Positions 32,895-50,124 of a DNA stretch of 64,000 bases are shown here, piece after piece. Every line of letters starts with the position of its first letter. The stretch's first letter is position 1. The translations under genes were made by a program, and so were the position numbers. Below the pieces are notes generated by a model. That model saw only the letters and a program-made list of their open reading frames with translations, had not been told where the DNA came from and ran no database searches. Source of the DNA: a virus; the IMG/VR virus record IMGVR_UViG_3300047494_000229, positions 1-64,000 of that record, one strand, 5' to 3'.

Positions 32895-33413
32895 GTGCTT
32901 TATAACCATTACGGCATACCCCAAACACGCGATCGCTCCTATGGCGCAGTCGCAGCCCTCACCTATTGGGTTTTTAAGTGCAGGGATAGAAGAAAGTCCC
33001 CAGCGATGGGGATAAAAACCTGGACTTTCTTGGAATCCAGTATCAGAAATTCGGCAGAGATATCTTCTACTTTGGAAGATTATTTACAGCGACTTTGTGA
33101 CAAACTTTTCTCCCAACTCCGTCCAGTGGAGTTGACTAAAATAATTCAGCCACAGCAGCGCATCTTGAGAGTAAATCTTGATGCAACTGAAATCAAAGAA
33201 TTGCCAATTGACCAAAACTTAGTTTTTATGGGCTGGCTAGATTTGGTTGCTGATATTGCGCCTCACGGTTTTAGTGAGTGGGACTTACTTGAGTTATGTC
33301 GCACCAAAGCGGGGATAATTCAAGTGCTTTGTCGCCTCAAATTTGAAGAGGATCGGGCATTAAGGATGGATGAGCCGGAAGATGCTATTGAGGTAGGAGC
33401 AATTGAATTATGA
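32895..33413 (+). CDS. cas11: type IV-B small subunit (Cas11-like)
   Basis: Helical 172 aa ORF (W.F....IRNSA..SSTLEDYLQRLCDKL) directly upstream of csf2. Confidence 0.6.
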   Translation: MLYNHYGIPQTRDRSYGAVAALTYWVFKCRDRRKSPAMGIKTWTFLESSIRNSAEISSTLEDYLQRLCDKLFSQLRPVELTKIIQPQQRILRVNLDATEIKELPIDQNLVFMGWLDLVADIAPHGFSEWDLLELCRTKAGIIQVLCRLKFEEDRALRMDEPEDAIEVGAIEL

Positions 33414-33571
33414 AGGAAATCAAAGAAGTCGCTAGCGCCCTAATTAATTTGCAAGATCACGGTGGTGATTGTATGTGCAATATCTGCCAAAAAGACCAAC
33501 AAACGATTGAGAAAAATCCTGAGATAGCGGAACAACTTACTGTATTGGTGAACAAAAAAATAAATGTTTGA
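33410..33571 (+). CDS. 53 aa HxxxCxCxxC microprotein, copy 1
   Basis: MKEIKEVASALINLQDHGGDCMCNICQKDQQTIEKNPEIAEQLTVLVNKKINV; ATGA overlap with cas11, overlaps the csf2 start; paralogue at 42276-42443. Confidence 0.85.
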   Translation: MKEIKEVASALINLQDHGGDCMCNICQKDQQTIEKNPEIAEQLTVLVNKKINV

Positions 33572-34703
33572 AAATTACGACATCTGTGATCGTTGCCGCC
33601 TAACTCTCCACTGCGTTTTCACCCCCCAACTTCCTTTGTCTCACATTGGGGAAGTGTCAGGAAATGTCAGCAACTTAAAAACAGTGAAGCTGCTTGATTT
33701 GGAGGGACAATCAAGACAGTGCTTTGTGTATTCAGGGAACGCCATTCGCAACGGTATTTTGCGGCGGGTTGGTGTAGCAGCTGCCCTTACAGATTTGGAA
33801 TTACAAGTCAACCCCGACGTGCATCAAACCATGTTCGCCGGTGGACGAATTGACGGTAGCACCGCATCAGACATGGAGTTAGACAAGAAAATCCGTACCT
33901 TTTTGCCGTGGCTTTCAGTGCTGGGAACCGCCAAACCCACAAAAGTATTTGGTTCCAAGGATCCTCAAATGGTTGCAGGGCGGATTAATGTCGGCTCTGC
34001 TCATTTAATCTGTTACGAATCAGCTGCTTACATTTACAATCAAATGCCAGGGATGCTGCCTCCAGAGGCGTTAGAGGGAATTGGGAAAATATTGGAGGCG
34101 CAGAAGGCGATCACCCTTGACCCAATGAGTTTACCAACAGCAGAGGCGATCGCCGCTTACAACGAGGTGAAGGCACAGTATCTACCATTGCTCCGTAAAG
34201 TGCTGCGGACATGGACAGAATTTATCACGGTTGACCAAACTACCCGCCGTGACAGTCTTCTTGACCCCAATTTAATTAAGTTTCTTCCCCCTGAAGCACA
34301 GAATTTATTGAAAGGGGAAGGGGGGAAGGAGAAGAAGTCTGACCAAATGATTGCGGGCGATCGTTTGATTATGGCGGGGTCAAAACTTTACTCGCGTTGG
34401 GATTTAAACACGACATCCGTGGAAGAAGGTTGGGTGTATGATGCATTACTGAAGTTCGATGAATCTCCGTACCTTGGAGGGAAGGGGCAAAGGGGTAACG
34501 GGCTTATATCCCTAGATATTTGGTATCAATCGGGTAAAGATTCTGGGATATTGTGCAGCATTGGTAAGCGTGCAGAGTCGGGGTTGTTGAGCGATAGATT
34601 CCAAGAACAGCACGGACGTTACAGAGAGTATATCAATCAATACCGCGAGTTCTTGACGGAAGCAAAAGACTCCAGCGAGTTAAAAAGTTTGTTAGGAAAT
34701 TAA
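33564..34703 (+). CDS. csf2: type IV CRISPR Cas7-family backbone protein Csf2
   Basis: PLSHIG, SGNAIRNGILRR, MFAGG, P.LSVLG, TRRD, YLGGKGQRGNG glycine loop. Confidence 0.9.
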   Translation: MFENYDICDRCRLTLHCVFTPQLPLSHIGEVSGNVSNLKTVKLLDLEGQSRQCFVYSGNAIRNGILRRVGVAAALTDLELQVNPDVHQTMFAGGRIDGSTASDMELDKKIRTFLPWLSVLGTAKPTKVFGSKDPQMVAGRINVGSAHLICYESAAYIYNQMPGMLPPEALEGIGKILEAQKAITLDPMSLPTAEAIAAYNEVKAQYLPLLRKVLRTWTEFITVDQTTRRDSLLDPNLIKFLPPEAQNLLKGEGGKEKKSDQMIAGDRLIMAGSKLYSRWDLNTTSVEEGWVYDALLKFDESPYLGGKGQRGNGLISLDIWYQSGKDSGILCSIGKRAESGLLSDRFQEQHGRYREYINQYREFLTEAKDSSELKSLLGN

Positions 34704-34791
34704 TTTGAATTGGTACTTGCCAATTCAAAAACACTTTGCTGCTATTGGTACATACCAAAATAAAAGGGCGGTAGAGCCCAAAGGATAAAAA

Positions 34792-34905
34792 ATGAAGCTA
34801 ATCAAAGAAACAGTGAATGGACAAGAGTGGACTAACGGTCACAGGGATTCATGGGTGCAGCTTGCCATCCTGGAGAAAGGCAAGAAGGCGGTTCTCACTG
34901 CATGA
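34792..34905 (+). CDS. 37 aa micro-ORF coupled to csf3
   Basis: MKLIKETVNGQEWTNGHRDSWVQLAILEKGKKAVLTA; AAGGA RBS; ATGA overlap with csf3. Confidence 0.55.
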   Translation: MKLIKETVNGQEWTNGHRDSWVQLAILEKGKKAVLTA

Positions 34906-35624
34906 AACCATTGAAAATAACTGCCGTAATGGGAAGTGCGATCGCCTGCTACGACTCCTATTCTCCAAGTTTAGATTCGCTCCTTGAGTGGCTAATACTG
35001 GATAAATTAAACCTCACTTCTCCCAATCCCACACCGGAACAAGTAGAAGCGACGCGCCCCATAGTTGACCGAGAGATGCCATTAGCCAAAGGCGAAGTTA
35101 TGGGTGAATGGTATTGGCAGGTTTCTTCACCCTGCTACCGCATTGTGAGCGAATATACAGATAGATACCGCAAGCGCTGGCAGCCAGGAATTGACAGTCC
35201 TCCTCCAGCGTGGGGAAAACGTAAGGCTAAATGGTCAACTTCTGAAGGGGCAGAGAAGAATTACGATCTGCCTTTATATTGTCGTAATACTCCGGCAATT
35301 AATTGGTATGCGGTGGGGGATAGGGAGGCGATCGCCCAACTCCTACAAAACTGTACCCATATTGGCAAGAAGCGATCTTATGGCAATGGACAGGTTTTGC
35401 GATGGCAAGTTGAACCAATAAAAGAAGACTGGCATCTGTGGCGTGATGATAAACTTATGCGTCCTATGCCATACAGGTTGTTATATTCAGATCCGCGAAT
35501 TTTGCAAAATGAACCTGTAATGATGAATTGGGGATGGCGTCCGCCTGCGTGGTTGCCTAGCAATAAAGAAGTGTGTGTAATGCCAAAGGGGAGTGTATGC
35601 CACTTAACTACGGCACAGGTTTGA
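34902..35624 (+). CDS. csf3: type IV CRISPR Cas5-family protein Csf3
   Basis: LKITA.M, LDSLL, WYAVGD...I..LL...HIGKKRSYGNG.V..W.VE, RPMP, GWRPPAW. Confidence 0.9.
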   Translation: MKPLKITAVMGSAIACYDSYSPSLDSLLEWLILDKLNLTSPNPTPEQVEATRPIVDREMPLAKGEVMGEWYWQVSSPCYRIVSEYTDRYRKRWQPGIDSPPPAWGKRKAKWSTSEGAEKNYDLPLYCRNTPAINWYAVGDREAIAQLLQNCTHIGKKRSYGNGQVLRWQVEPIKEDWHLWRDDKLMRPMPYRLLYSDPRILQNEPVMMNWGWRPPAWLPSNKEVCVMPKGSVCHLTTAQV

Positions 35625-36346
35625 CCGCGCCTTGGATGAAGAAAAAAGTAGATAGGGCGATCGCTTGTATTGAAGACTGGGTAAGTAAGTGTGATCGCCT
35701 CTGCTATACCTCAACTAGTGGTGGCAAGGATTCCTTGGTAACTGCTCACCTCATCCGCCACGTTTACCCTAGCTGCCCAATGGTGTGGATCAATCAAGGG
35801 CATTTAGCAGAGTGGCCTGACTGCATTGAACTATTGCAGTTTTTAAAAACTCAGGGATGGAACATCGTTGAACTATGTCCAGTGCGCGATTTGTGGCATT
35901 TGTACCTCGACTTGGGCATTCCATTGGAAGGGAAAATGGACACCAAAGCAGATAAAATAATAAACCAACGGTTAATGTACGACCCGTTGGAAGAGTACCA
36001 AGAGCTTAACAATATCAAGGGTTACGCTTGGGGTATTCGTAAAGATGAAAGTCGCAACCGCGCTTTTTACTTGCGGAAGTGGGGAGAATTACACCAACTG
36101 AAAAACGGACTGTGGTGTTGTTCGCCTGTGGCATTTTGGACGGTACAAGATATCTGGCTATATATTGACCAGCAGAAATTGCCTTATCCTGCCATGTATG
36201 ACCGCGATCGCCTCACCATCCGCAACGGGCCACCCATTGGTACAACCGGGGTAAACTGGGGGCGGTTGGCGGAACTCAGAAAACACCACCCTGATTTGTG
36301 GCAGCAGTTTGTAGAGAAATTTCCAGAGGTGCGAGATTATGGCTGA
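35597..36346 (+). CDS. cysH: CysH-like PAPS-reductase-family (PP-loop) protein
   Basis: SGGKDS PP-loop, WGIRKDESRNR, P.AFWT..DIW.YI....LPY..MYD. Confidence 0.9.
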   Translation: MPLNYGTGLTAPWMKKKVDRAIACIEDWVSKCDRLCYTSTSGGKDSLVTAHLIRHVYPSCPMVWINQGHLAEWPDCIELLQFLKTQGWNIVELCPVRDLWHLYLDLGIPLEGKMDTKADKIINQRLMYDPLEEYQELNNIKGYAWGIRKDESRNRAFYLRKWGELHQLKNGLWCCSPVAFWTVQDIWLYIDQQKLPYPAMYDRDRLTIRNGPPIGTTGVNWGRLAELRKHHPDLWQQFVEKFPEVRDYG

Positions 36347-36995
36347 TTTGTGTTACCTCTGCGGAAAACCTGCAACCAAACCACTAGAACTCAAGGATAG
36401 TTTCACCAGCCATTCTCAATGCCGCATCCCCACATCAAATAAGATGTGCGATCGGTGTCACTCAACAATTGCCGGCGACCAAAAACAACTCTGGTACTGG
36501 AACGAGGGTAAAAATAAGTGGAGCAAATTGTGGGGGCGATCGCTCTCCCGAATTTATCAAGGCGATAAACTACTCGCTCCCGTGATTGAAGGGGAAAAGG
36601 AAGGTTTGCCAATAGTCAAAAACCTGCTTACCCGTGTTGAACTTCGCGGTTTTTTACTTAATCCCCCACAACCGCCATTTACTATAGCGATCGCCGAGTC
36701 AGGGCAGAAGCATATTCTGCCGTGGGCACAAGAGGCGTTAAACCGTGTCATTTTCCCAGTACAATTCGAGCTTGATACTGTGTATATAGTTTACGCCCAA
36801 TTTACTGTGCTACTGGGCTTTTATGAGCAGATGATGACGCTGGGATTTTCAAAAACTGAGATTGACACTGGGGATTATCGGAGCGACAGATTGATGCAAA
36901 ATCTAGAAATTTGGGAGCCACTGGAAGAGGTGATCGCCCCGATGCGTGGAACGAGATTGTTACAGTTAATTTCTTTTGTGGGACAAATTCAGTGA
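36339..36995 (+). CDS. csf1: type IV CRISPR large subunit Csf1 (Cas8-like)
   Basis: CYLCG...SFT...CDRC zinc finger; NPPQPPF.IAIAESGQKH. Confidence 0.85.
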   Translation: MADLCYLCGKPATKPLELKDSFTSHSQCRIPTSNKMCDRCHSTIAGDQKQLWYWNEGKNKWSKLWGRSLSRIYQGDKLLAPVIEGEKEGLPIVKNLLTRVELRGFLLNPPQPPFTIAIAESGQKHILPWAQEALNRVIFPVQFELDTVYIVYAQFTVLLGFYEQMMTLGFSKTEIDTGDYRSDRLMQNLEIWEPLEEVIAPMRGTRLLQLISFVGQIQ

Positions 36996-37801
36996 AACCC
37001 TACAAACTGCCTAAAGGTTATTTGAATTTCCAACAATTCAATAACCACTTGAGTCAAATACAATTAGTTAAACCCAAACCTATTAATGTTTTGGGAATGC
37101 CAGAGGTAGCAAATAATCTATCCCATATCTATAGTAAATGGTCACAGGGATACCCTTTATACTGCGTCAGACCTAATCTACTAGAAGAGATGTTAGAAAC
37201 CGATGTTGGCGAAAATCTAGCACTATTTACTGACATCAATTTAGCAATCCCATCTTATGTTTTGTTTTTACCTCAATATCAGATTAAATCCCCTTGCGGT
37301 AAGGGTTGTATTGATTATCTGGTTATCAATCATGAAGAGTTAGATTTGCCAGAACATAAACACGCGATCGCTTGGGGCGGTGTTGATTCCAATGATGGAT
37401 TGTTCTTAGCGTACAAGCGAATTCGCAGGGATGGAACCTTACAGCGATCGCGCTTTGGGACTGAGGATAAAGAACAACAAGAACAGTCTTTATTACTCAG
37501 AAATATAGCATTGCAATCAGTTCTTCTGCTGCAATACTATCCAGAAATTGAAGAGCAAATTACCATTGTGCCTGGGAAAGAAAAGGGATTTGGTGGGAAT
37601 AAATTAGAATCCCCTTTTCTACTCCCTCGCTGGTTAGGGAAAGAATCAAAATCGTCGCCAAGCTCAAGCACCGGTAAAAGTGGTGCATCTAAAGCTACGC
37701 ATTTTCGGCGGGGGCACTGGAGGGCGCAGCCATGCGGAAAAGGTAGGGCAGAAACAAAAATAACCTGGGTACGCCCTGCATGGGTAGCTGGCAACAATTA
37801 G
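36992..37801 (+). CDS. HxRRGHWR-motif protein coupled to csf1
   Basis: GTGA overlap; C-terminal HFRRGHWRAQPCGKGR...WVRP.WV. Confidence 0.7.
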   Translation: MKPYKLPKGYLNFQQFNNHLSQIQLVKPKPINVLGMPEVANNLSHIYSKWSQGYPLYCVRPNLLEEMLETDVGENLALFTDINLAIPSYVLFLPQYQIKSPCGKGCIDYLVINHEELDLPEHKHAIAWGGVDSNDGLFLAYKRIRRDGTLQRSRFGTEDKEQQEQSLLLRNIALQSVLLLQYYPEIEEQITIVPGKEKGFGGNKLESPFLLPRWLGKESKSSPSSSTGKSGASKATHFRRGHWRAQPCGKGRAETKITWVRPAWVAGNN

Positions 37802-37815
37802 AGCCACTTTGGAAT

Positions 37816-37840
37816 ACCCGACTTCTGCAAGAAGTCGGGT
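37816..37840. terminator. hairpin ending the cas operon
   Basis: ACCCGACTTC-TGCAA-GAAGTCGGGT. Confidence 0.5.
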
Positions 37841-38074
37841 AAAGGGTAAAGGAAAATTCTATCCTTTTCCCCTTTAACCTTTCCCCCTTTCCCTACAAGA
37901 GTACAAAAGGTACTTTTGCACTCTTGTCTACTCATCCTCCCTACTTCCCGTAAAAATTATTGGGTAAGGGGTTGACATTTACCCGTCACTTACCCGATAC
38001 TATTTACATACGAGGGCGATGGCGATCGCCTTCCAAACAATTGAAAAACCAAAAGTGAAATATAGGAGAAAAAC

Positions 38075-38791
38075 ATGATTGAGTCAATTTTGAAACTTGC
38101 TAACTTCGGATTTGTAAAACCATTTACAGCATTAATAGAGCAAAGATGCCAAGGCAGTATGCTTGATGTGATTGATGGAGTTCTAGAATTTGATTTGTCC
38201 TTGATAGACAGACAAGAAATAGATAGCTCCTACAAGATTGAAAACACAGTAAAATTAGTCGCACACCAAACCAAGTGGTTAAAATCAAAATATTTATCTT
38301 GGTATCCAATGATGGATGCTCGGCATCCTGGTAAAGGATTTGATGAAAAGCCACCAATAGAATTGGTGGAAAAAATTAATCAAATTGACGCGCTTCTTGA
38401 CATAGCAAGAGCCAAGAAACTTGAACTGCTTCTCCCAACACTCGATAACAATACGCCTGATCCATCCAGAGAAGAAAGAGTGTATATCTGTAAAGTTGTG
38501 GTTAATGATGGGCGCACTGGAGAGGCAATTTATACACCATTGAGATACTCGCTAGAACCTTCTTGCATAGATATCAGATATCTAGAAGAAGTAATTTACA
38601 AAGTGCCCTACTATTGGCATGGCAAGTCTGGTTTTTCTGAAATCTACTATTCAGATAAAGAAGTAGTAGAAGTGGTGGCGATAGATCCATCATTTGAAGG
38701 ATTAGACCCGCTAGTCTATGGCGGCTGGCAACTGGACAAGGTATTTACTAAAAAAGCCTCCCTCAACAGAGAGGGGTATAAAGAATACTAA
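38075..38791 (+). CDS. hypothetical protein
   Basis: AGGAG RBS, 238 aa. Confidence 0.6.
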   Translation: MIESILKLANFGFVKPFTALIEQRCQGSMLDVIDGVLEFDLSLIDRQEIDSSYKIENTVKLVAHQTKWLKSKYLSWYPMMDARHPGKGFDEKPPIELVEKINQIDALLDIARAKKLELLLPTLDNNTPDPSREERVYICKVVVNDGRTGEAIYTPLRYSLEPSCIDIRYLEEVIYKVPYYWHGKSGFSEIYYSDKEVVEVVAIDPSFEGLDPLVYGGWQLDKVFTKKASLNREGYKEY

Positions 38792-38847
38792 CTCTCACCC
38801 TGTAACATTGCGATCGCCAAAAGCGTGATGCCGCTTCATCGAATGAA

Positions 38848-39135
38848 GTGCGATCGCCTGCCACAGGGCAACTTAAAATCAAAGCAATGAAGTTCCTTAT
38901 TTGTAATCATCAAACCCCTGAACAAGTAGCCCAGATGTTGAGGGAGGGAAGGGCAGAAGAAGCGATCGCGCTTATCCGCCAAACCTACTTCTATAAATCC
39001 CCGTATTGTCCAAAATGCGGGGGGAAAATGCGAAAAGACAACAAAACTGGCATTTGCTCAAGATGCCAGAAAAATAAATTACCTAATTCAAAATACCGGA
39101 GGAAAGACCTGCCGGAGAATGAGTTGAGCAACTAG
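38848..39135 (+). CDS. small zinc-ribbon protein
   Basis: CPKCG...CSRCQ. Confidence 0.55.
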   Translation: MRSPATGQLKIKAMKFLICNHQTPEQVAQMLREGRAEEAIALIRQTYFYKSPYCPKCGGKMRKDNKTGICSRCQKNKLPNSKYRRKDLPENELSN

Positions 39136-39279
39136 ATTTGCTTTTTCGGGGTGTAGCCGAATGGAATTTTGGAAGTTAAAAATACTTAAAGCTACGAGAA
39201 ATCGTAGCTTTTCACTTTTGGTATCAATGCTGAGGGCGATCGCCTCCCCACTCCGGTAACATAAAATTTTACTTTCATT

Positions 39280-39513
39280 ATGAAACCTGAAACCATCCAA
39301 GCTATTACTCCTTTGTTCTTGGGGGCGATCGGGGGAGTTTTGGGACTTGCTGTAATTCTCTCGCCACATATCAGTGATGCAAAGTGGGCAGCAGGTTTTG
39401 GACTGGCAGGAACCGCGATCGCTGGGGCTTCTGGTTTAGCTCAAAATAGAAACGCTGAGTCTGCCAACATCCAAGGAAGTAGCGTTTCTATTGAAAACAA
39501 AACTGAAGATTAG
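39280..39513 (+). CDS. small two-TM membrane protein (holin-like)
   Basis: Two hydrophobic segments and a polar tail. Confidence 0.5.
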   Translation: MKPETIQAITPLFLGAIGGVLGLAVILSPHISDAKWAAGFGLAGTAIAGASGLAQNRNAESANIQGSSVSIENKTED

Positions 39514-39597
39514 CTATCAATTAACAGCTTGCTTTCCATCGCCAAATAGCTCAAGAAAGGAATAAAAATCTTTGTAATTCGTCGTTTAATAAAAAAG

Positions 39598-40005
39598 TTG
39601 AGCGCACGAATTCCTATGAAATTTATTTTATCTGTTTGTCTAACTGAAGATGTTCCAGCTATTAATTACATTCTTGAAAAGAGTACTTACGTATTAGGGC
39701 GGCACTCTAGCTGCGACATTCTAATTCTCGATCGGTTCCTCTCAAGGTATCACTGTACCTTGATTCTGATGGAACCAAGTAGTACTTGCAAACAGCCTTG
39801 TTACATAATCTATGATGGGCTGCTTCTATCGCAAGAGCGAAGTCGAAACGGGATTTGGGTAAATGGAGAAAGGGTAAAGGTGTTGCGGGAATTAAACCAT
39901 CAAGACGTAATTACTTTTGGCTCTCAGAGTTTCCCCAAAGCAATTTTCATAATAGATTCTATTGACAAAGACAAGGGGACTATCCCGAATGAATTTGAAA
40001 ATTAG
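39598..40005 (+). CDS. FHA-domain protein
   Basis: LGR...CDI....LSR.HC, SRNG.WVNG, LNHQDVITFG. Confidence 0.9.
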   Translation: MSARIPMKFILSVCLTEDVPAINYILEKSTYVLGRHSSCDILILDRFLSRYHCTLILMEPSSTCKQPCYIIYDGLLLSQERSRNGIWVNGERVKVLRELNHQDVITFGSQSFPKAIFIIDSIDKDKGTIPNEFEN

Positions 40006-40459
40006 CAATAAACAAAAATATTTAATATTGACAGTTCTGATTGTGATGGGGGCGATCGCCTGTCTCCAACTAAACATCAAAATATCCGGTGATTGGGTGG
40101 CGATCGCCGGACTGCTATTTGCACTTTGGCAAATTGTGATTGCCATTAATGGGGCTGAGGAAGGGCGAATTGATAAATTGCGGGAGGCGATCGCTAAACT
40201 GGAAGAAGCTTCTCTTAAGCGCGATTTTTATCACGATCAAGTACTTTCTCAAATCCAGAGGGAGTTGGTGATGCTGACTACTCAGTTTGAACATCATCAA
40301 CAAGCGCACGGACACAAGGGTTTGATTGAGGAAACGCTGAGAATAAAAGATGAGCTTGCTAGACTTGGGGCAGGTTTGGCAGGGTTGGCGCGATCAGCTG
40401 AGACAGTCCGAAGGTTGGAGAGACTTGAAGAAAAAATCAATGCGCTGCAAAATCCGTGA
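39989..40459 (+). CDS. membrane-anchored coiled-coil protein
   Basis: Two TM segments followed by a coiled coil. Confidence 0.6.
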   Translation: MNLKISNKQKYLILTVLIVMGAIACLQLNIKISGDWVAIAGLLFALWQIVIAINGAEEGRIDKLREAIAKLEEASLKRDFYHDQVLSQIQRELVMLTTQFEHHQQAHGHKGLIEETLRIKDELARLGAGLAGLARSAETVRRLERLEEKINALQNP

Positions 40460-40531
40460 TTTTGCTCAGGTCATGAGGGCGATCGCGTGTCTAGTATAGC
40501 AGCGACATGATTTTGGGTAATGGGTAAAAAT

Positions 40532-40690
40532 ATGCACATCAATGTTTCTACTATTCGCCAAGCTTTTCAGCTAGCTGCCACTTTTATTCTGGATATCGAA
40601 ACACTTTTTGGTGGTTCGGCTCCTGCACCTAGTGGCAACCTGCAAGCGCCAGAAGCATCGGCTAGCGCTAGTTCAACTGCCGCTCAGTAA
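40532..40690 (+). CDS. 52 aa hypothetical protein
   Basis: Manually translated MHINVSTIRQAFQLAATFILDIETLFGG...AAQ. Confidence 0.4.
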   Translation: MHINVSTIRQAFQLAATFILDIETLFGGSAPAPSGNLQAPEASASASSTAAQ

Positions 40691-40880
40691 TCCTTAATCC
40701 TTGTTGATGGGCGATCGCTGCTAGGCGTTCTATGTCATTAGCGATCGCCACTCCTACTTGTGCAGAAGTGATTGGCAAGATTTCTATAGCCAAAATCTTC
40801 GTATTCTACCCACCTGATAGATTTGCTTTTAAGGACTTTTTCTCTAGGTAGTAGAGACTTTTCAGTTAATAAGCTATAAA

Positions 40881-41777
40881 CTACATTCTTCTTTGAATTG
40901 CGGCATTAATCACTTCTTGACTACTAGAAGAACTGGTGATGTTTGCCAAATTCAGGAATAAGTTTACTTTATCCCTAGCCTGCTCAAATGTTAGTCTTGG
41001 CGGATTATTGATCACCAACTTGACTAAATCTGAGTACCAGTATCGGGGCGATCGCAAAGTCAACCCCGCATCAATAACTTTCTCGCGCCACCCATCTTCG
41101 GGCAGGATTTCTTGGTCTTCTTTCCCCAAATACCAATGTTTGCTAACTTGGGGCATCCAAGACCCCATATTCGCATCACAATACCTTAACCCTTTCACAT
41201 CCATGAAATCATATCCCATCGCCTTGATTTCTCTAAGAAACGACAATTCAGAAACCCCAGCAATATAAGGATGGCAGATGGGAAGAGTTAAAACTCCGTA
41301 GTCCTTTGCCAACTGCAAAGTTTTGAGGTGCTGTTTAACCGTAAACCGTTCAATAGGCGGTTCATTTCCAGTGATGCCCAAGACAAGGGCAAAATTGGGA
41401 ATTTTGGCAAGCCTCGACATAATGCGATCACTAATTGTCCATTTGCTGACACAAGTAATGAGCTTGGCGATAGGCGAAACTTTCTCAACCCAATGCCACA
41501 AATACTCATCAAGTACTGGGAAAAATGGATCTGTGATGGCTGTGAATCCAACGATATCCCCAGCCAGGATACCCCACGGAAAACTATAAAAACGTTCTTG
41601 CTCTTGGGGATTGTCCTTAATGAAGGGAGAAACATTAACAAAGCTACAAGCCTTGTTAATGCCCGCAATTGGGTTCTTATTCCACACCTCCCGACGGGTG
41701 TCATGCTCTGTTATAAAGCAATATTTGCAAGCCACGGGGCAAGCAGATTTGCCGACTTCAAAACGGAAGGATTGCAT
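40881..41777 (-). CDS. radical SAM protein (SPL-like TIM barrel)
   Basis: CPVACKYC (CxxxCxxC), TDPFF, VSKW, PICHPYIAG. Confidence 0.85.
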   Translation of the reverse strand: MQSFRFEVGKSACPVACKYCFITEHDTRREVWNKNPIAGINKACSFVNVSPFIKDNPQEQERFYSFPWGILAGDIVGFTAITDPFFPVLDEYLWHWVEKVSPIAKLITCVSKWTISDRIMSRLAKIPNFALVLGITGNEPPIERFTVKQHLKTLQLAKDYGVLTLPICHPYIAGVSELSFLREIKAMGYDFMDVKGLRYCDANMGSWMPQVSKHWYLGKEDQEILPEDGWREKVIDAGLTLRSPRYWYSDLVKLVINNPPRLTFEQARDKVNLFLNLANITSSSSSQEVINAAIQRRM

Positions 41778-42279
41778 CTAATATCTCCGAAAATACTGAA
41801 TCTTGATCAAGTTCACCATTGATGGTGATTAATTTGTTTTTTTGTTGCCAAAACTCTAGTAACGGAGGAAGGCGATCGCTCTCTAGCAATAGTCTTTCCG
41901 CGCTACTTAGTTCATCTCCTCTAGCTCGAATTTGACAACGTAATACTGCAATATTTGGGGAAATTTTAAGATAGATAACAAAATCTACCTCTTGAACGAC
42001 TTTGGCTTGATTGATATTGCGAGGAAAGCCATCGATTATCCAAGAATTTTTAGCACATATTGGCTTGGCTATTTCAATGGCGATCGCGTCTGGCAACGGA
42101 AGCCAAGTTTTACTATCGCCCCAATACGAACTAATTCTTTGGCTGAGTTCGGTTTTATTTTGAAATTCCGCTCTCACTAAATCCCCCATACTATAATGGA
42201 GGACTGTATAAAACTCAGATAGATTCTTACCCTGAGTGCTTTTTCCAGCACTGGGAAGACCTAAGAGAACTATCTTCAT
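41758..42279 (-). CDS. adenylate-kinase-family NMP kinase
   Basis: GLPSAGKSTQ P-loop, SMGDLVR, IDGFPR...QA. Confidence 0.9.
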   Translation of the reverse strand: MKIVLLGLPSAGKSTQGKNLSEFYTVLHYSMGDLVRAEFQNKTELSQRISSYWGDSKTWLPLPDAIAIEIAKPICAKNSWIIDGFPRNINQAKVVQEVDFVIYLKISPNIAVLRCQIRARGDELSSAERLLLESDRLPPLLEFWQQKNKLITINGELDQDSVFSEILDAILPF

Positions 42280-42443
42280 TTGTTTTTTGTAGTTAAACTA
42301 GCAACGGCGCTAGCGACCTCTGGATTTTTTGAAATCGTTTCCTTGTCTCCCTGACATTGACTACATCCGCAATCAGCACCGTGATCTTGCACGTTTGCGA
42401 TCGCTTCACAAACCTGCTTAATTTGATTAACTTCTTTTGACAT
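42276..42443 (-). CDS. 55 aa HxxxCxCxxC microprotein, copy 2
   Basis: MSKEVNQIKQVCEAIANVQDHGADCGCSQCQGDKETISKNPEVASAVASLTTKNK; ATGA overlap with the kinase gene; paralogue of 33410-33571. Confidence 0.85.
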   Translation of the reverse strand: MSKEVNQIKQVCEAIANVQDHGADCGCSQCQGDKETISKNPEVASAVASLTTKNK

Positions 42444-43638
42444 TAGCTATCTCCAAAATTTGTACAGGACTCATACCCACTGTTACTTGTAGTTCGGGAG
42501 GCAAGACATCCTGAAACATCGACAAAAAACAGTAGGCGCATTTTAAGCATTTATTCTTAGGGATATACTCACTCCAAACCATCCAGCTATTGACTGCATA
42601 TAAATCATTGGCTAGCCCAAAGCGCGGGTGTAGCCGAATGTTAGAATTTTCACCTGGTGGAATTGCGGGGTCTGTTGCTAGCATTCCCCCGGTGATAAAC
42701 CGAGCAAAGCTCATCTCGCCCCAAGAGGGCATTTTGTTATCCCAAGTGCGAATATTGATGTAAGGCATCCCCATGTCGGGAGCTTTTGGGCAGTTTGTGC
42801 AGCACAAGCTACACTGCGATCGCACTTCTACCGCGCATTTTTGATATCTTTCTGATGCTGTATGCACTTCAACTTGAAAGCCCAAATAACGCAGCAATTC
42901 CACACTATGCGGAACTGGCTGCACAAATTGAGCAGTTCCTGCACAAGAATCAGAAATAGGACAAGAATTGCAATCAACAAAGTTTGGCGCGTTGTAATAC
43001 GGCGAGAGCGATCGCTTTTTTTCTGACAACGCCGTAACCGCGCACTGGGTTCTAGTCCAATATGGGACTTTTAGCCATTGGGCTAATTCCCGCATATATC
43101 CTGATGTTGCCTGCGGGGTAATTTTGAGTGTTCGCATCCACTCTTGGTTGTCAGGTGCAGAGATACCCTGCATCCCAGCGTCTCTAACAACTTGTTCATC
43201 ACCACGGAAGCCACTTGAGACAACCGCGTGGCATCCCGCATCAACCGAACGTGTAAACATCTCTTTGATAACCCGTGGATCATCGTTGAGAGTGTGAATA
43301 ATTGGGCGAATATAGGCGATCGCCTTTGCTCCCGACTCACGCGCAGCACTCAAAGTCTTGTACCTTGATTCAGTTGGTGCTGGCTCCATCTCCTTGGGAA
43401 GGTGGGAGATGGAAGCAAATACAAACAAGTTTAAATTAGCTGCCCAATATTTCAAGCGCTCTCGCCACCAAGGGCTAGACAAATCGCCTTTGGTAATCAG
43501 GGCAACTGGCCCCGTATGGTGATCGCTCACCAATTGATTCAATTTAGCTGCTGTACTTTCCCTCAAAATAGAGGGATCAGCCAAATTATTTACACTGACG
43601 GGCAAATCTCTGAGCAATCTTAGCCATTCTTCCTGCAT
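42427..43638 (-). CDS. radical-SAM-like barrel protein with C-terminal Cys clusters
   Basis: ADP, LITKG, SIS.LP..MEP, IAYIRPII..LND; no N-terminal CxxxCxxC; CNSC..C, CSLCCTNC and CLKCAYC in the C-terminal half. Confidence 0.65.
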   Translation of the reverse strand: MQEEWLRLLRDLPVSVNNLADPSILRESTAAKLNQLVSDHHTGPVALITKGDLSSPWWRERLKYWAANLNLFVFASISHLPKEMEPAPTESRYKTLSAARESGAKAIAYIRPIIHTLNDDPRVIKEMFTRSVDAGCHAVVSSGFRGDEQVVRDAGMQGISAPDNQEWMRTLKITPQATSGYMRELAQWLKVPYWTRTQCAVTALSEKKRSLSPYYNAPNFVDCNSCPISDSCAGTAQFVQPVPHSVELLRYLGFQVEVHTASERYQKCAVEVRSQCSLCCTNCPKAPDMGMPYINIRTWDNKMPSWGEMSFARFITGGMLATDPAIPPGENSNIRLHPRFGLANDLYAVNSWMVWSEYIPKNKCLKCAYCFLSMFQDVLPPELQVTVGMSPVQILEIANVKRS

Positions 43639-44087
43639 AATTTAAAAGACTCCTTTGGATATACAAGACAATGTGGGTCGCTGAAGGGGATGAACGGATT
43701 GTGCAGGCTCTCAACCACCAATCCCTCATTCCCTGATTTAAATGTGTGGAGTATCCCCCTTGGCATCCACACCCGGATACCGGGATGGAGAGGATAATGC
43801 AGAATATTTTTGTCTCTATAACAGACAAACTCGCCACTACCTTCAAGGACAGTTACTCTGCGATCGCTCTTGGGATGAGTGTGGAGGCGATTATCTTCTG
43901 TCGATTCCGGGGGGAATCGGACAATTAGCTGGCCCAACTCTCCCCACACTGCCTTGATTAGCAGGGCTTCCATGTATTCTTCGTAGGCTACCCAATCGCC
44001 TTGAGGGATTGGCGCACAAGAAAGTTCAACTTTTTCAACGCCGCCACGCTTCCAATTTTGACGGCATTGTTCAGCAAAATTAATCAA
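43620..44087 (-). CDS. cupin-domain protein
   Basis: LHTHP....VTVLEGSG and LHPG..VWMPRGILHTF cupin motifs. Confidence 0.85.
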   Translation of the reverse strand: MINFAEQCRQNWKRGGVEKVELSCAPIPQGDWVAYEEYMEALLIKAVWGELGQLIVRFPPESTEDNRLHTHPKSDRRVTVLEGSGEFVCYRDKNILHYPLHPGIRVWMPRGILHTFKSGNEGLVVESLHNPFIPFSDPHCLVYPKESFKLCRKNG

Positions 44088-49317: not shown

Positions 49318-49508
49318 TAAAAAAGCCAGTAACATCACTGGCTTAAGTATCGAATGGATTTATCGCTACAACTATAGCTAATTGTATTATGTCCCCAAGC
49401 GATCGCCTGCGCCTCATCCAAATCCAAGAAAAATTCGCCAAACTCGGATGGCTGCCACGCGAAGACGTAATATGGTTGATAGAGATTTTGGAGCAACTAT
49501 GCAGAACT

Positions 49509-49633
49509 TGAGGAACAATTGTTCCTGAAAAACGACTGAAAGCCTTATTATTGCGTTAAGAACAATTGTTCTTTAGGGGCGATCGCTCAGGACGGGCCGC
49601 GCCAACGCCAACTCCAGGAACAATTGTTCCTGA
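49509..49633. repeat. paired-palindrome dispersed repeat, copy D, plus a third core
   Basis: Cores at 49513, 49560 and 49618. Confidence 0.9.
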
Positions 49634-50124
49634 AGAATCAGAGAAAGTACTGTCTCTACGTTAGAAACACCGTGAAATTGTTTATCATCGCCAATTCTAA
49701 CCAGCTAATAAACTGCTACTATCACTCTGAATTTAAAACGTCTCGTTTTTGTAACAAAGCTAAATAAATTCCACTTTTCAGACTCAAGAAAACGATAGAA
49801 TTTCAGTATTGCTACTATTGAGTTTGATGAAGAGACTGCTGAGTAATTCAGAGTTGCAAATTCTTACTGATGAATTTCACGTTTTAGATGGCGAGATTCC
49901 CTTACTCATCAAGCTTTTATGGGATATTCGCCATTTTCAGGAAGATTTGCTAGCACTTCCCATACATAAATTAGAGTTGTTAATGCGACAGGTTTGGGAA
50001 ATTGATCAAGCGATCGCCTTGGAAATCCTAAAGTTAGTATAAAATGAACATAGCTTGTCACAGAAAAACACACGAAGCCGAGACGAACTTTAGGCTTGTG
50101 TGTAAATTGTGATGAATGCTTCGT

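What the first reader, a model, noticed from the sequence alone, without database searches (positions are those of the whole stretch)
33410..42443. Paralogous Cys/His microproteins link a type IV-B CRISPR operon to a radical-SAM/kinase operon: candidate new system
Seen: two ORFs absent from the ORF track, 33410-33571 (+, between cas11 and csf2) and 42276-42443 (-, between a radical-SAM-like gene and the NMP kinase). They share IKxVxxAxxNxQDHGxDCxCxxCQxDxxTIxKNPExA, with 22 of 37 core residues identical. Each has an ATGA overlap with a neighbour, although the operons are 9 kb apart on opposite strands. Established: type IV-B loci lack arrays and carry a CysH-like PP-loop enzyme of unknown role; PAPS-reductase-family proteins act in DNA modification (DndC); radical SAM enzymes modify nucleotides and Cys-containing peptides. 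Inference: the microprotein is a shared metal-binding adaptor, sulfur carrier or RiPP-like substrate. The Csf complex, CysH, two rSAM proteins, kinase and cupin could then form one nucleic-acid or nucleotide modification or counter-defence system.
Basis: partly seen in the sequence, partly recalled or inferred. Interest (0 to 1): 0.9.

Follow-up and report, generated by a model that had tools for sequence, protein, structure and literature searches.

The report
Paralogous His-Cys3 microproteins in cyanophage operons
A cyanophage carries two old, well-conserved copies of a previously undescribed 55-residue metal-binding mini-protein, one inside a type IV-B CRISPR operon and one inside a radical-SAM/kinase operon, but related phages run both operons without it, so it looks like swappable accessory cargo and not a link that joins the two operons into one system.

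Summary
Both ORFs exist at the stated coordinates, share 24/47 residues (E 2e-18) and are under purifying selection. They belong to a rare, unnamed family of about 20 clusters with invariant H-x3-C-x-C-x2-C. AlphaFold2 models a three-helix bundle (pLDDT 90.5) with the His/Cys ligands at the helix 1-helix 2 junction.

The neighbours are as described: a type IV-B set (cas11, csf2, csf3, cysH-like, csf1) and cupin / rSAM-fold protein / adenylate-kinase-like / canonical rSAM.

The 'one system' reading is not supported:
- Fourteen related phage loci with the same IV-B operon lack the microprotein. One is a complete 95-kb genome that also lacks the rSAM operon.
- Five relatives of the rSAM operon lack it too.
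- In both operons the microprotein sits in a variable junction slot that relatives leave empty or fill with unrelated small ORFs.
- Overlapping junctions are the norm in this genome.

Best reading: an exchangeable, probably zinc-stapled, protein-binding accessory microprotein of unknown target.

This scan has reported type IV-B operons in cyanophages before on other DNA; only the microprotein family is new here.

The parts
32895..33413 (+). cas11 (type IV small subunit), 172 aa
   Evidence: PADLOC typeIV_Cas11 E 2.8e-6. It is 74-79% identical to the gene upstream of csf2 in most related phage loci, 67% in L015. Its C-terminal tail differs from that of relatives without an insert.
33410..33571 (+). 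Microprotein 1 (P0001, 53 aa), His-Cys3 three-helix-bundle family
   Evidence: It occupies the cas11|csf2 junction slot, which is empty in 9 of the 14 related loci.
33564..34703 (+). csf2 (type IV Cas7), 379 aa
   Evidence: PADLOC typeIV_Cas7 E 1.4e-29. TIGR03115 is weak. There are 291 homologues, some named from Dolichospermum MAGs.
34851..35624 (+). csf3 (type IV Cas5), 257 aa
   Evidence: TIGR03116 E 5.8e-17, below the curated cut-off.
35573..36346 (+). cysH-like PP-loop enzyme (CasCysH), 257 aa
   Evidence: PF01507 PAPS_reduct E 1.2e-14, above the cut-off. NCBIfam cysH families.
36339..36995 (+). csf1 (type IV large subunit), 218 aa
   Evidence: TIGR03114 E 2.7e-8, below the cut-off. Conserved at 54-68% identity in the related loci that reach it.
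40881..41777 (-). Radical SAM protein with canonical N-terminal CPVACKYCF motif (rsamB), 298 aa
   Evidence: CX3CX2C at residues 13-20. Weak PF04055 match over the motif. Conserved at 50-52% identity in L017 and L039-L042.
41758..42279 (-). Adenylate-kinase-like NMP kinase, 173 aa
   Evidence: PF00406 E 5e-20. TIGR01351 E 1.3e-27, below the cut-off. Present at 35% identity in L039 and as a remnant in L017 and probably L040-L042.
42276..42443 (-). Microprotein 2 (P0002, 55 aa), paralogue of microprotein 1
   Evidence: It occupies the slot between the rSAM-like gene and the kinase. L039 has an unrelated 55-aa ORF there.
42427..43638 (-). Radical-SAM-fold protein without the N-terminal Cys triad, with C-terminal CX2CX2C (rsamA), 403 aa
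   Evidence: AF2 pLDDT 86. The 22 best VIA-align matches are radical SAM enzymes, led by SkfB (Z 11.4, rmsd 2.9, 174 aligned). The family has 86 clusters and 11 invariant Cys.
43620..44087 (-). Cupin-fold protein, 155 aa
   Evidence: PF07883 and PF00190, weak matches at or below the cut-offs. 59% identical in L017 and L039-L041, directly upstream of rsamA.

Best explanation
The two ORFs encode anciently diverged paralogues of a rare, unnamed family of ~55-residue proteins. The family folds as a three-helix bundle held together by one metal ion, most likely zinc. The ligands would be the invariant His at the end of helix 1, two Cys in the loop and one Cys at the start of helix 2 (H-x3-C-x-C-x2-C).

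Each gene is exchangeable cargo inserted into a variable slot at a gene junction: cas11|csf2 in the type IV-B operon, and rSAM-like|kinase in the other operon. The insert inherits the translational coupling of the old junction, so the microprotein is made together with that operon's products.

Only the metal site and the helix 2-3 turn (N36, and P37 in most members) are conserved; the helix surfaces vary. From this I infer that the protein works as a small metal-stabilised protein-binding module, in the manner of zinc anti-sigma domains or small phage inhibitors. Each paralogue would have its own partner, either a product of its own operon or a host protein.

Shown: the genes, the family, selection, the fold model, the variable slots, and the operons' independence from the microprotein. 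Inferred: metal binding, protein binding and the choice of partner. It is not a core part of either operon and does not join them into one system.
For: - Family: 18 small members in 1.84 billion representatives, with A10, H17, C21, C23 and C26 invariant and N36 nearly so.
- Selection: pS 0.79 against pN 0.34.
- Fold: AF2 pLDDT 90.5, helices 2-17, 24-35 and 37-51.
- No named family: no Pfam, NCBIfam, PHROG, PADLOC or PDB-sequence match.
- Missing from IV-B relatives: none of the 14 related IV-B loci has it, and neither do 5 whole records, one of them a complete genome.
- Missing from relatives of the rSAM operon.
- Slot contents vary: empty, an unrelated 111-aa ORF (L003/4/7/16) or the microprotein at cas11|csf2; an unrelated 55-aa ORF (L039) or the microprotein at rsamA|adk.
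- Insertion signature: relatives end cas11 with ...TNV* on AATGTTTGA, and the window's microprotein ends ...INV* on the same junction. The L003 insert is flanked by a GAAGTTGAG duplication.
- Local stability: a ~95% identical contig from another study keeps microprotein 1 between cas11 and csf2.
- Most family members are acidic or neutral, which does not suggest DNA binding.
Against: - No partner has been identified.
- The genomic contexts of the other ~16 family members are unknown, so enrichment near csf or rSAM genes elsewhere cannot be excluded.
- Two diverged copies kept in one genome, each tightly coupled within an enzyme or complex operon, fit an operon-linked role better than random cargo.
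- Metal binding is inferred from sequence only. Three Cys plus one His could also hold iron or a 2Fe-2S cluster.
- The fold match to an anti-sigma domain (Z 6.1) is within the noise for helical bundles.
Confidence: 0.5

Rival explanations
1. The microprotein is a shared cofactor-type adaptor (electron, sulfur or metal/Fe-S carrier) that serves the CysH-like PP-loop enzyme and the radical SAM proteins. This would make the Csf complex, CysH, two rSAM proteins, kinase and cupin one nucleic-acid or nucleotide modification system.
For: - Paralogues lie in both operons of one genome.
- Both operons contain enzymes that normally need a redox or Fe-S partner: the PAPS-reductase family, and rSAM with many invariant Cys.
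- The Cys3-His ligand set could in principle bind iron. This is my own knowledge and was not tested.
- An earlier scan note reports a cupin attached to a IV-B operon in another cyanophage. I did not check it.
Against: - A complete related phage has IV-B but neither the rSAM operon nor the microprotein.
- All 14 IV-B relatives and all 5 rSAM-operon relatives lack the microprotein.
- The IV-B loci show no cupin, rSAM or kinase genes within the flanks fetched, up to 10 kb a side.
- There is no C-terminal Gly-Gly and no rubredoxin- or ferredoxin-like fold.
- The literature says CasCysH lacks the catalytic Cys of sulfur-transfer enzymes (PMC8175902).
Confidence: 0.12
2. A host-directed take-over or counter-defence factor, for example a mini anti-sigma-like or inhibitor protein. 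Its position inside these operons would then be incidental and reflect only where small cassettes can insert.
For: - The slots hold unrelated small ORFs in relatives, as in phage accessory hot spots.
- Only structural residues are conserved and the surfaces vary.
- The best structural match is the PupR anti-sigma domain, Z 6.1, rmsd 2.6, 51 residues aligned.
- Zinc anti-sigma domains are three-helix bundles with a CHCC or HHCC centre at a helix junction (PMC11506125).
Against: - No zf-HC2 match, and the motif spacing and the helix junction differ from ZAS domains.
- No sigma factor is encoded by the phage record.
- Z 6 is not significant for helical bundles.
- It does not explain why two diverged copies are kept.
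Confidence: 0.2
3. A RiPP-like precursor peptide whose Cys residues are modified by the adjacent radical SAM and cupin enzymes.
For: - It is a small Cys-containing ORF directly downstream of an rSAM-fold gene.
- The best fold matches of that gene include the RiPP maturases SkfB and SuiB.
Against: - It is not conserved with the rSAM operon. L039 has a Cys-free unrelated ORF, and L017/L040-42 have only a kinase remnant.
- The second copy sits in a CRISPR operon with no rSAM gene.
- The invariant residues form one compact ligand set in a confidently folded bundle, not a leader plus variable core.
- The SkfB and SuiB matches reflect the general rSAM barrel; NifB, LipA and PFL-AE score alike.
Confidence: 0.04
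4. The ORFs are not translated genes, and the similarity is a DNA repeat or chance.
For: Both are short and were absent from the ORF track. No proteomic or ribosome-profiling data exist. The RNA-library contigs did not cover them.
Against: - E 2e-18 between the copies.
- Saturated synonymous sites with conserved protein sequence.
- 18 homologues from independent samples with invariant ligands.
- An SD-like GGAG upstream of both.
- High-confidence fold model.
Confidence: 0.02

Closest known systems
Type IV-B CRISPR-Cas (Csf1-Cas11-Csf2-Csf3 plus CasCysH), e.g. Mycobacterium sp. JS623 Csf complex (PMC7937560; review PMC8175902)
   Same: All five signature genes are present and no CRISPR array is found in the window. 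The function of this subtype is still unknown in the literature.
   Different: The operon is phage-borne and ordered cas11-csf2-csf3-cysH-csf1. It has an extra 53-aa His-Cys3 microprotein inserted between cas11 and csf2. That insert is absent from the nearest 14 phage relatives, and I did not meet it in the parts of the type IV-B papers I read.
Zinc-binding anti-sigma domains (ZAS, Pfam zf-HC2; e.g. DdvA, RslA, RsiW; PMC11506125)
   Same: Small three-helix bundle with one His/Cys metal centre: a ligand at a helix C-terminus, one in the loop and one at the next helix's N-terminus. The surfaces vary. The best VIA-align match is the non-zinc anti-sigma domain of PupR.
   Different: The motif is H-x3-C-x-C-x2-C at the helix 1-2 junction, not [C/H]...H-x3-C-x2-C at the helix 2-3 junction. 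There is no zf-HC2 match, no cognate sigma factor nearby and no membrane or sensor part.
TAZ-type HCCC zinc sites (CBP TAZ2)
   Same: His-Cys3 ligands staple consecutive helices. TAZ2 was the top but insignificant Foldseek row. The ligand chemistry is from my own knowledge.
   Different: E 4.9, probability 0.07: no demonstrable relationship. TAZ is a eukaryotic domain with three zinc sites.
RiPP precursor plus radical SAM maturase pairs (SkfA/SkfB, SuiA/SuiB, SCIFF)
   Same: A short Cys-bearing ORF lies next to an rSAM-fold gene whose best fold matches include SkfB and SuiB.
   Different: The microprotein is folded, is not co-conserved with the rSAM genes, and has a paralogue in an operon without rSAM genes.

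Membership tests
Type IV-B CRISPR-Cas | Csf2 (Cas7) backbone protein | tested here: met
   PADLOC typeIV_Cas7 E 1.4e-29. TIGR03115 is only weak.
Type IV-B CRISPR-Cas | Csf3 (Cas5) and Csf1 (large subunit) | tested here: met
   TIGR03116 E 5.8e-17 and TIGR03114 E 2.7e-8. Both are below NCBIfam's curated cut-offs but are specific matches.
Type IV-B CRISPR-Cas | Cas11-like small subunit | tested here: met
   PADLOC typeIV_Cas11 E 2.8e-6.
Type IV-B CRISPR-Cas | cysH-like accessory gene in the operon | tested here: met
   PF01507 E 1.2e-14, above the cut-off, between csf3 and csf1.
Type IV-B CRISPR-Cas | No CRISPR array at the locus | tested here: met
   No array-like repeats in the 64-kb window. 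I did not search explicitly for cas6, cas1 or cas2.
Type IV-B CRISPR-Cas | The microprotein as a regular component of the module | tested here: not met
   Absent from 14 related phage IV-B loci and from 5 whole records, one of them a complete genome.
ZAS anti-sigma domain (zf-HC2) | H-x3-C-x2-C motif and a match to PF13490 | tested here: not met
   The motif is H-x3-C-x-C-x2-C. No PF13490 match by hmmscan or by the genome search.
ZAS anti-sigma domain (zf-HC2) | Three-helix anti-sigma fold | tested here: inconclusive
   AF2 models a three-helix bundle. The best VIA match, the PupR anti-sigma domain at Z 6.1, is within the noise for helical bundles.
ZAS anti-sigma domain (zf-HC2) | Cognate sigma factor encoded alongside | tested here: not met
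   No Sigma70_r2 match, and only a sub-threshold r4-like HTH elsewhere in the record.
RiPP precursor with radical SAM maturase | Precursor co-conserved with its maturase | tested here: not met
   Five relatives of the rSAM operon lack it, and their slot holds an unrelated ORF or a kinase remnant.
RiPP precursor with radical SAM maturase | Post-translational modification of the peptide | not testable with these tools
   Needs mass spectrometry after co-expression.
Radical SAM superfamily (the neighbouring genes) | CX3CX2C cluster motif | tested here: met
   The gene at 40881-41777 has CPVACKYCF at residues 13-20. The gene at 42427-43638 does not: it has CX2CX2C near its C-terminus.
Radical SAM superfamily (the neighbouring genes) | Partial TIM-barrel rSAM fold | tested here: met
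   For 42427-43638, the 22 best of 48,161 chains are rSAM enzymes: SkfB Z 11.4, NifB 10.0, PFL-AE 9.8, SPL 8.6. 40881-41777 was not folded.

The most novel reading that the evidence does not exclude
The two paralogues are operon-specific, metal- or redox-sensitive regulatory subunits. One would dock on the Cas11/Csf2 filament of the type IV-B complex, the other on the rSAM-like enzyme or its kinase. Both modules would then answer to the same intracellular signal (zinc, oxidative stress) and act as a coordinated nucleic-acid modification or counter-defence programme. This would give type IV-B its first known small accessory subunit.
Probability: 0.08. Interest if true: 0.75.

Novelty: new variant of a known kind. 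Interest (0 to 1): 0.35.

Why it matters
Type IV-B CRISPR-Cas has no known function. Natural variants that add or drop a small subunit next to Cas11 and Csf2 are cheap handles for biochemistry: the complex can be purified with and without the microprotein.

The microprotein family itself is new, rare and confidently folded, with an unusual His-Cys3 site. It shows how phages slip tiny genes into overlapping gene junctions while keeping translational coupling. If it turns out to bind the Csf filament or the rSAM enzyme, it would be a useful probe. If it is only cargo, the finding is a modest addition to the catalogue of phage microproteins.

Tried and rejected
**Contexts of the other family members**
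- The search for related loci with the family alignment or with single members found nothing in viral, genome or metagenome contigs.
- A degenerate DNA pattern for DHGxDCxCxxC in IMG/VR gave 18 loci, none a convincing member.
- tblastn against phages and plasmids gave nothing, except a chance hit inside a 215-aa P-RSM1 protein.
- No cyanobacterial genome handle could be obtained.

**Contig-length matching as a proxy for co-location**
- Only one coincidence appeared: the 29-aa fragment P0014 and the rSAM-like homologue P0030 are both on record with a 3310-base Logan contig. This is suggestive, not proof.

**Complex prediction**
- Complex prediction of Cas11 with microprotein 1 returned no answer, score 0.00. 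It is no evidence either way.

**Other searches without result**
- ESM Atlas: no usable hit.
- PDB sequence profile: nothing.
- Foldseek against PDB and BFVD: nothing significant.
- Pfam zf-HC2 and sigma-factor searches: negative.
- Rfam: nothing in the window.
- Literature search for cupin + rSAM + kinase in phages: no paper.

**Laid contigs**
- RNA-library contigs (X4 and X5, probably one data set filed twice) lie on cas11, csf2, cysH, the FHA region and the 3' end of the canonical rSAM gene, but not on the microproteins. They may be DNA carry-over.
- Parts of the stretch left uncovered in X2 and X3 prove nothing.

Full report
**Observation**

The two ORFs are real.
- window:33410-33571 (+) gives a 53-aa protein, P0001. 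window:42276-42443 (-) gives a 55-aa protein, P0002.
- They align without gaps over 47 residues with 24 identities, E 2e-18.
- P0001's ATG overlaps the stop of the upstream gene (ATGA), and its stop overlaps the ATG of the downstream gene (AATGTTTGA).
- P0002 starts 17 nt before the stop of the upstream gene and ends in an ATGA overlap with the kinase gene. Both have a GGAG 7-10 nt upstream of the ATG.
- The relationship is at protein level. Nucleotide identity is 57%, synonymous sites are saturated (pS 0.79) while pN is 0.34, and half of the identical residues use different codons. No DNA similarity extends beyond the ORFs.
- So these are old paralogues under purifying selection, not a recent duplication.
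- The ATGA overlaps carry little weight. By a crude gene call, 37 of 71 same-strand neighbours in the window overlap, nine of them by ATGA.

**Setting**

The window belongs to a 74-kb IMG/VR virus record estimated 69% complete, assembled from a moss metagenome.

The plus-strand operon is a type IV-B effector set:
- Cas11, PADLOC E 2.8e-6.
- Csf2, PADLOC typeIV_Cas7 E 1.4e-29.
- Csf3, TIGR03116 E 5.8e-17, and Csf1, TIGR03114 E 2.7e-8.
- A PAPS-reductase-family CysH-like protein, PF01507 E 1.2e-14.
- No array-like repeats in the window.

The minus-strand operon reads as follows:
- A cupin.
- A 403-aa protein with no family match. Its AF2 model (pLDDT 86) is most similar to radical SAM enzymes: the 22 best of 48,161 chains are rSAM enzymes, led by SkfB at Z 11.4. 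It carries CX2CX2C near its C-terminus and not the N-terminal triad.
- P0002.
- An adenylate-kinase-like protein.
- A 298-aa protein with the canonical CPVACKYCF motif.

This scan has reported cyanophage type IV-B operons several times before on other DNA, and their function is still unknown in the literature.

**The microprotein family**

- A profile search of 1.84 billion representatives found 21 proteins at E <= 0.001. Most are 44-59 aa, one is 89 aa, one is a 29-aa fragment, and three long repetitive proteins are spurious.
- In the 18-member alignment, A10, H17, C21, C23 and C26 are invariant and N36 nearly so. The motif is H-x3-C-x-C-x2-C.
- P0001, P0002 and P0004 are about 50% identical to one another. 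P0003 is 84% identical to P0001.
- Nothing matches in Pfam, NCBIfam, PHROGs, PADLOC or PDB sequences.
- AlphaFold2 with this alignment gives a confident three-helix bundle: pLDDT 90.5, helices 2-17, 24-35 and 37-51. The His lies at the end of helix 1, two Cys in the loop and the third Cys at the start of helix 2.
- Foldseek finds nothing significant.
- VIA-align's best row is the anti-sigma domain of PupR (Z 6.1, rmsd 2.6 A, 51 residues aligned). That is within the range expected by chance for helical bundles.
- Most members are acidic or neutral.

**Test of the link**

IV-B side:
- Fourteen IMG/VR loci carry the same cas11-csf2-csf3-cysH-csf1 operon, with Csf2 64-68% identical. A family HMM finds the microprotein in none of them.
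- It is also absent from five of the whole records, including a complete 95-kb genome with terminal repeats. That complete genome also lacks the rSAM-like gene.
- In nine loci cas11 abuts csf2 directly. Four loci have an unrelated 111-aa ORF in the gap, and L015 has rearranged, duplicated csf genes.

rSAM side:
- Five loci carry cupin / rSAM-like / rSAM (one, L042, is cut inside the rSAM-like gene), and none has the microprotein.
- L039, whose rSAM-like protein is 83% identical, has an unrelated Cys-free 55-aa ORF followed by a different adenylate kinase.
- L017 has only a 62-aa remnant of that kinase in the slot; L040-L042 have the same spacing.

The junction sequences show how the inserts sit:
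- Relatives without an insert end cas11 with ...EVEVTNV* on AATGTTTGA, which holds the csf2 ATG.
- In the window the microprotein ends ...KKINV* on the same junction, while cas11 has acquired a new tail.
- The L003 insert is flanked by a duplicated GAAGTTGAG.
- Likewise, the tail of the rSAM-like protein diverges right after ...SPVQIL in the window, L039 and L017.

Both positions are therefore cassette slots. Within close kin the arrangement is stable. A ~95% identical contig from another study keeps microprotein 1 between cas11 and csf2, with a 5-nt insertion that only changes the tail. A P0002-like fragment is on record with a contig of the same length, 3310 bases, as an 80%-identical rSAM-like homologue.

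**Interpretation**

- Neither operon needs the microprotein, and the IV-B operon occurs in a complete genome without the rSAM operon. The proposal that these genes form one system through a shared adaptor is not supported.
- A RiPP-substrate role is unlikely. The protein is predicted to be folded, its invariant residues form one compact ligand set, it is not co-conserved with the rSAM genes, and one copy lies in an operon with no rSAM gene.
- A carrier role (electrons, sulfur, Fe-S) cannot be excluded chemically, but no comparative evidence supports it.
- The best-supported reading is a probably zinc-stapled three-helix protein-binding module. It is inserted as exchangeable cargo and expressed with its host operon.
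- Conservation limited to the metal site and the helix 2-3 turn, with variable surfaces, resembles zinc anti-sigma domains. Those are three-helix bundles with a CHCC or HHCC centre at a helix junction (PMC11506125).
- Membership in that family fails: the motif spacing and the junction differ, there is no zf-HC2 match, and no sigma factor is encoded by the phage record.
- It remains open whether each paralogue binds products of its own operon or a host protein. Keeping two diverged copies in one genome mildly favours different partners.

**Limits**

- The single complex prediction (Cas11 with P0001) gave no answer and is not evidence either way.
- Metal binding, translation and any interaction remain untested.

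**Verdict**

The family is new, rare and credible. The 'new linked system' interpretation is mostly not supported. Interest is moderate.

Noticed in passing
L003:9620-10020 (also L004, L007, L016) versus L005:9920-10020 and window:33340-33585: The cas11|csf2 junction is an insertion hot spot. An unrelated 111-aa ORF in four relatives is flanked by a duplicated GAAGTTGAG. Both it and the window's microprotein inherit the ancestral ...NV* / ATG overlap with csf2.
   Followed up: partly
L015:1399-8605: One related phage locus has a rearranged, partly duplicated IV-B region. It holds short cas11 and csf2 fragments, then cas11-csf2-csf3, a divergent cysH-like gene (23% identity), a second csf3, csf1, and then a third csf3-cysH-csf1 set.
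   Followed up: no
L006:13364-14915 and L010:11806-13207: Two relatives carry a very divergent CysH-like gene (27-28% identical, still PF01507). An extra ~230-aa ORF of unknown family lies between it and csf1. L006 also has about 1.5 kb of extra genes between csf2 and csf3.
   Followed up: partly
L017:9228-9416 (L040-L042 have the same spacing) versus L039:9385-10032: The 62-aa ORF between the two rSAM genes in L017 is a remnant of the adenylate kinase...RGDKKEAIA..LERQ.FP.LIE... matches the middle of the L039 kinase. The kinase was therefore ancestral in the operon and was partly deleted in these phages.
   Followed up: partly
window:42427-43638 (-): This is an rSAM-fold protein with no N-terminal Cys triad but a C-terminal CX2CX2C and 11 invariant Cys. 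Structural alignments to rSAM enzymes start after their cluster-binding loop, which fits the circular-permutation idea noted elsewhere in this scan. The family has more than 80 clusters, some from cyanobacterial MAGs, and one source calls it 'DNA repair photolyase'.
   Followed up: partly
window:2789-2860 and 49505-49669: The palindrome AGGAACAATTGTTCC(T) recurs in paired direct repeats at two distant intergenic places. It may be an operator of a phage regulator.
   Followed up: no
window:42396-42403 and 33428-33439 / 42306-42317: The P0002 gene contains the cyanobacterial HIP1 palindrome GCGATCGC. The 12-mer GTCGCTAGCGCC (encoding VASA) occurs in both microprotein genes, but in helix 1 of one and helix 3 of the other.
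   Followed up: no
P0009 (89 aa, ENA contig of 38 kb): One family member has a basic 40-residue N-terminal extension. It carries an RGRP (AT-hook-like) stretch and a strand-helix segment reminiscent of ribbon-helix-helix proteins. It could be a DNA-binding fusion or a miscalled start.
   Followed up: no
window:33110-33312, 33752-33897, 36042-36193, 39878-41092: Two metatranscriptome libraries from moss/plant samples, apparently one data set filed twice, hold near-identical short contigs (at most one difference each) on cas11, csf2, cysH, the FHA-domain region and the end of the canonical rSAM gene. This is a weak hint of transcription, and DNA carry-over is not excluded.
   Followed up: partly
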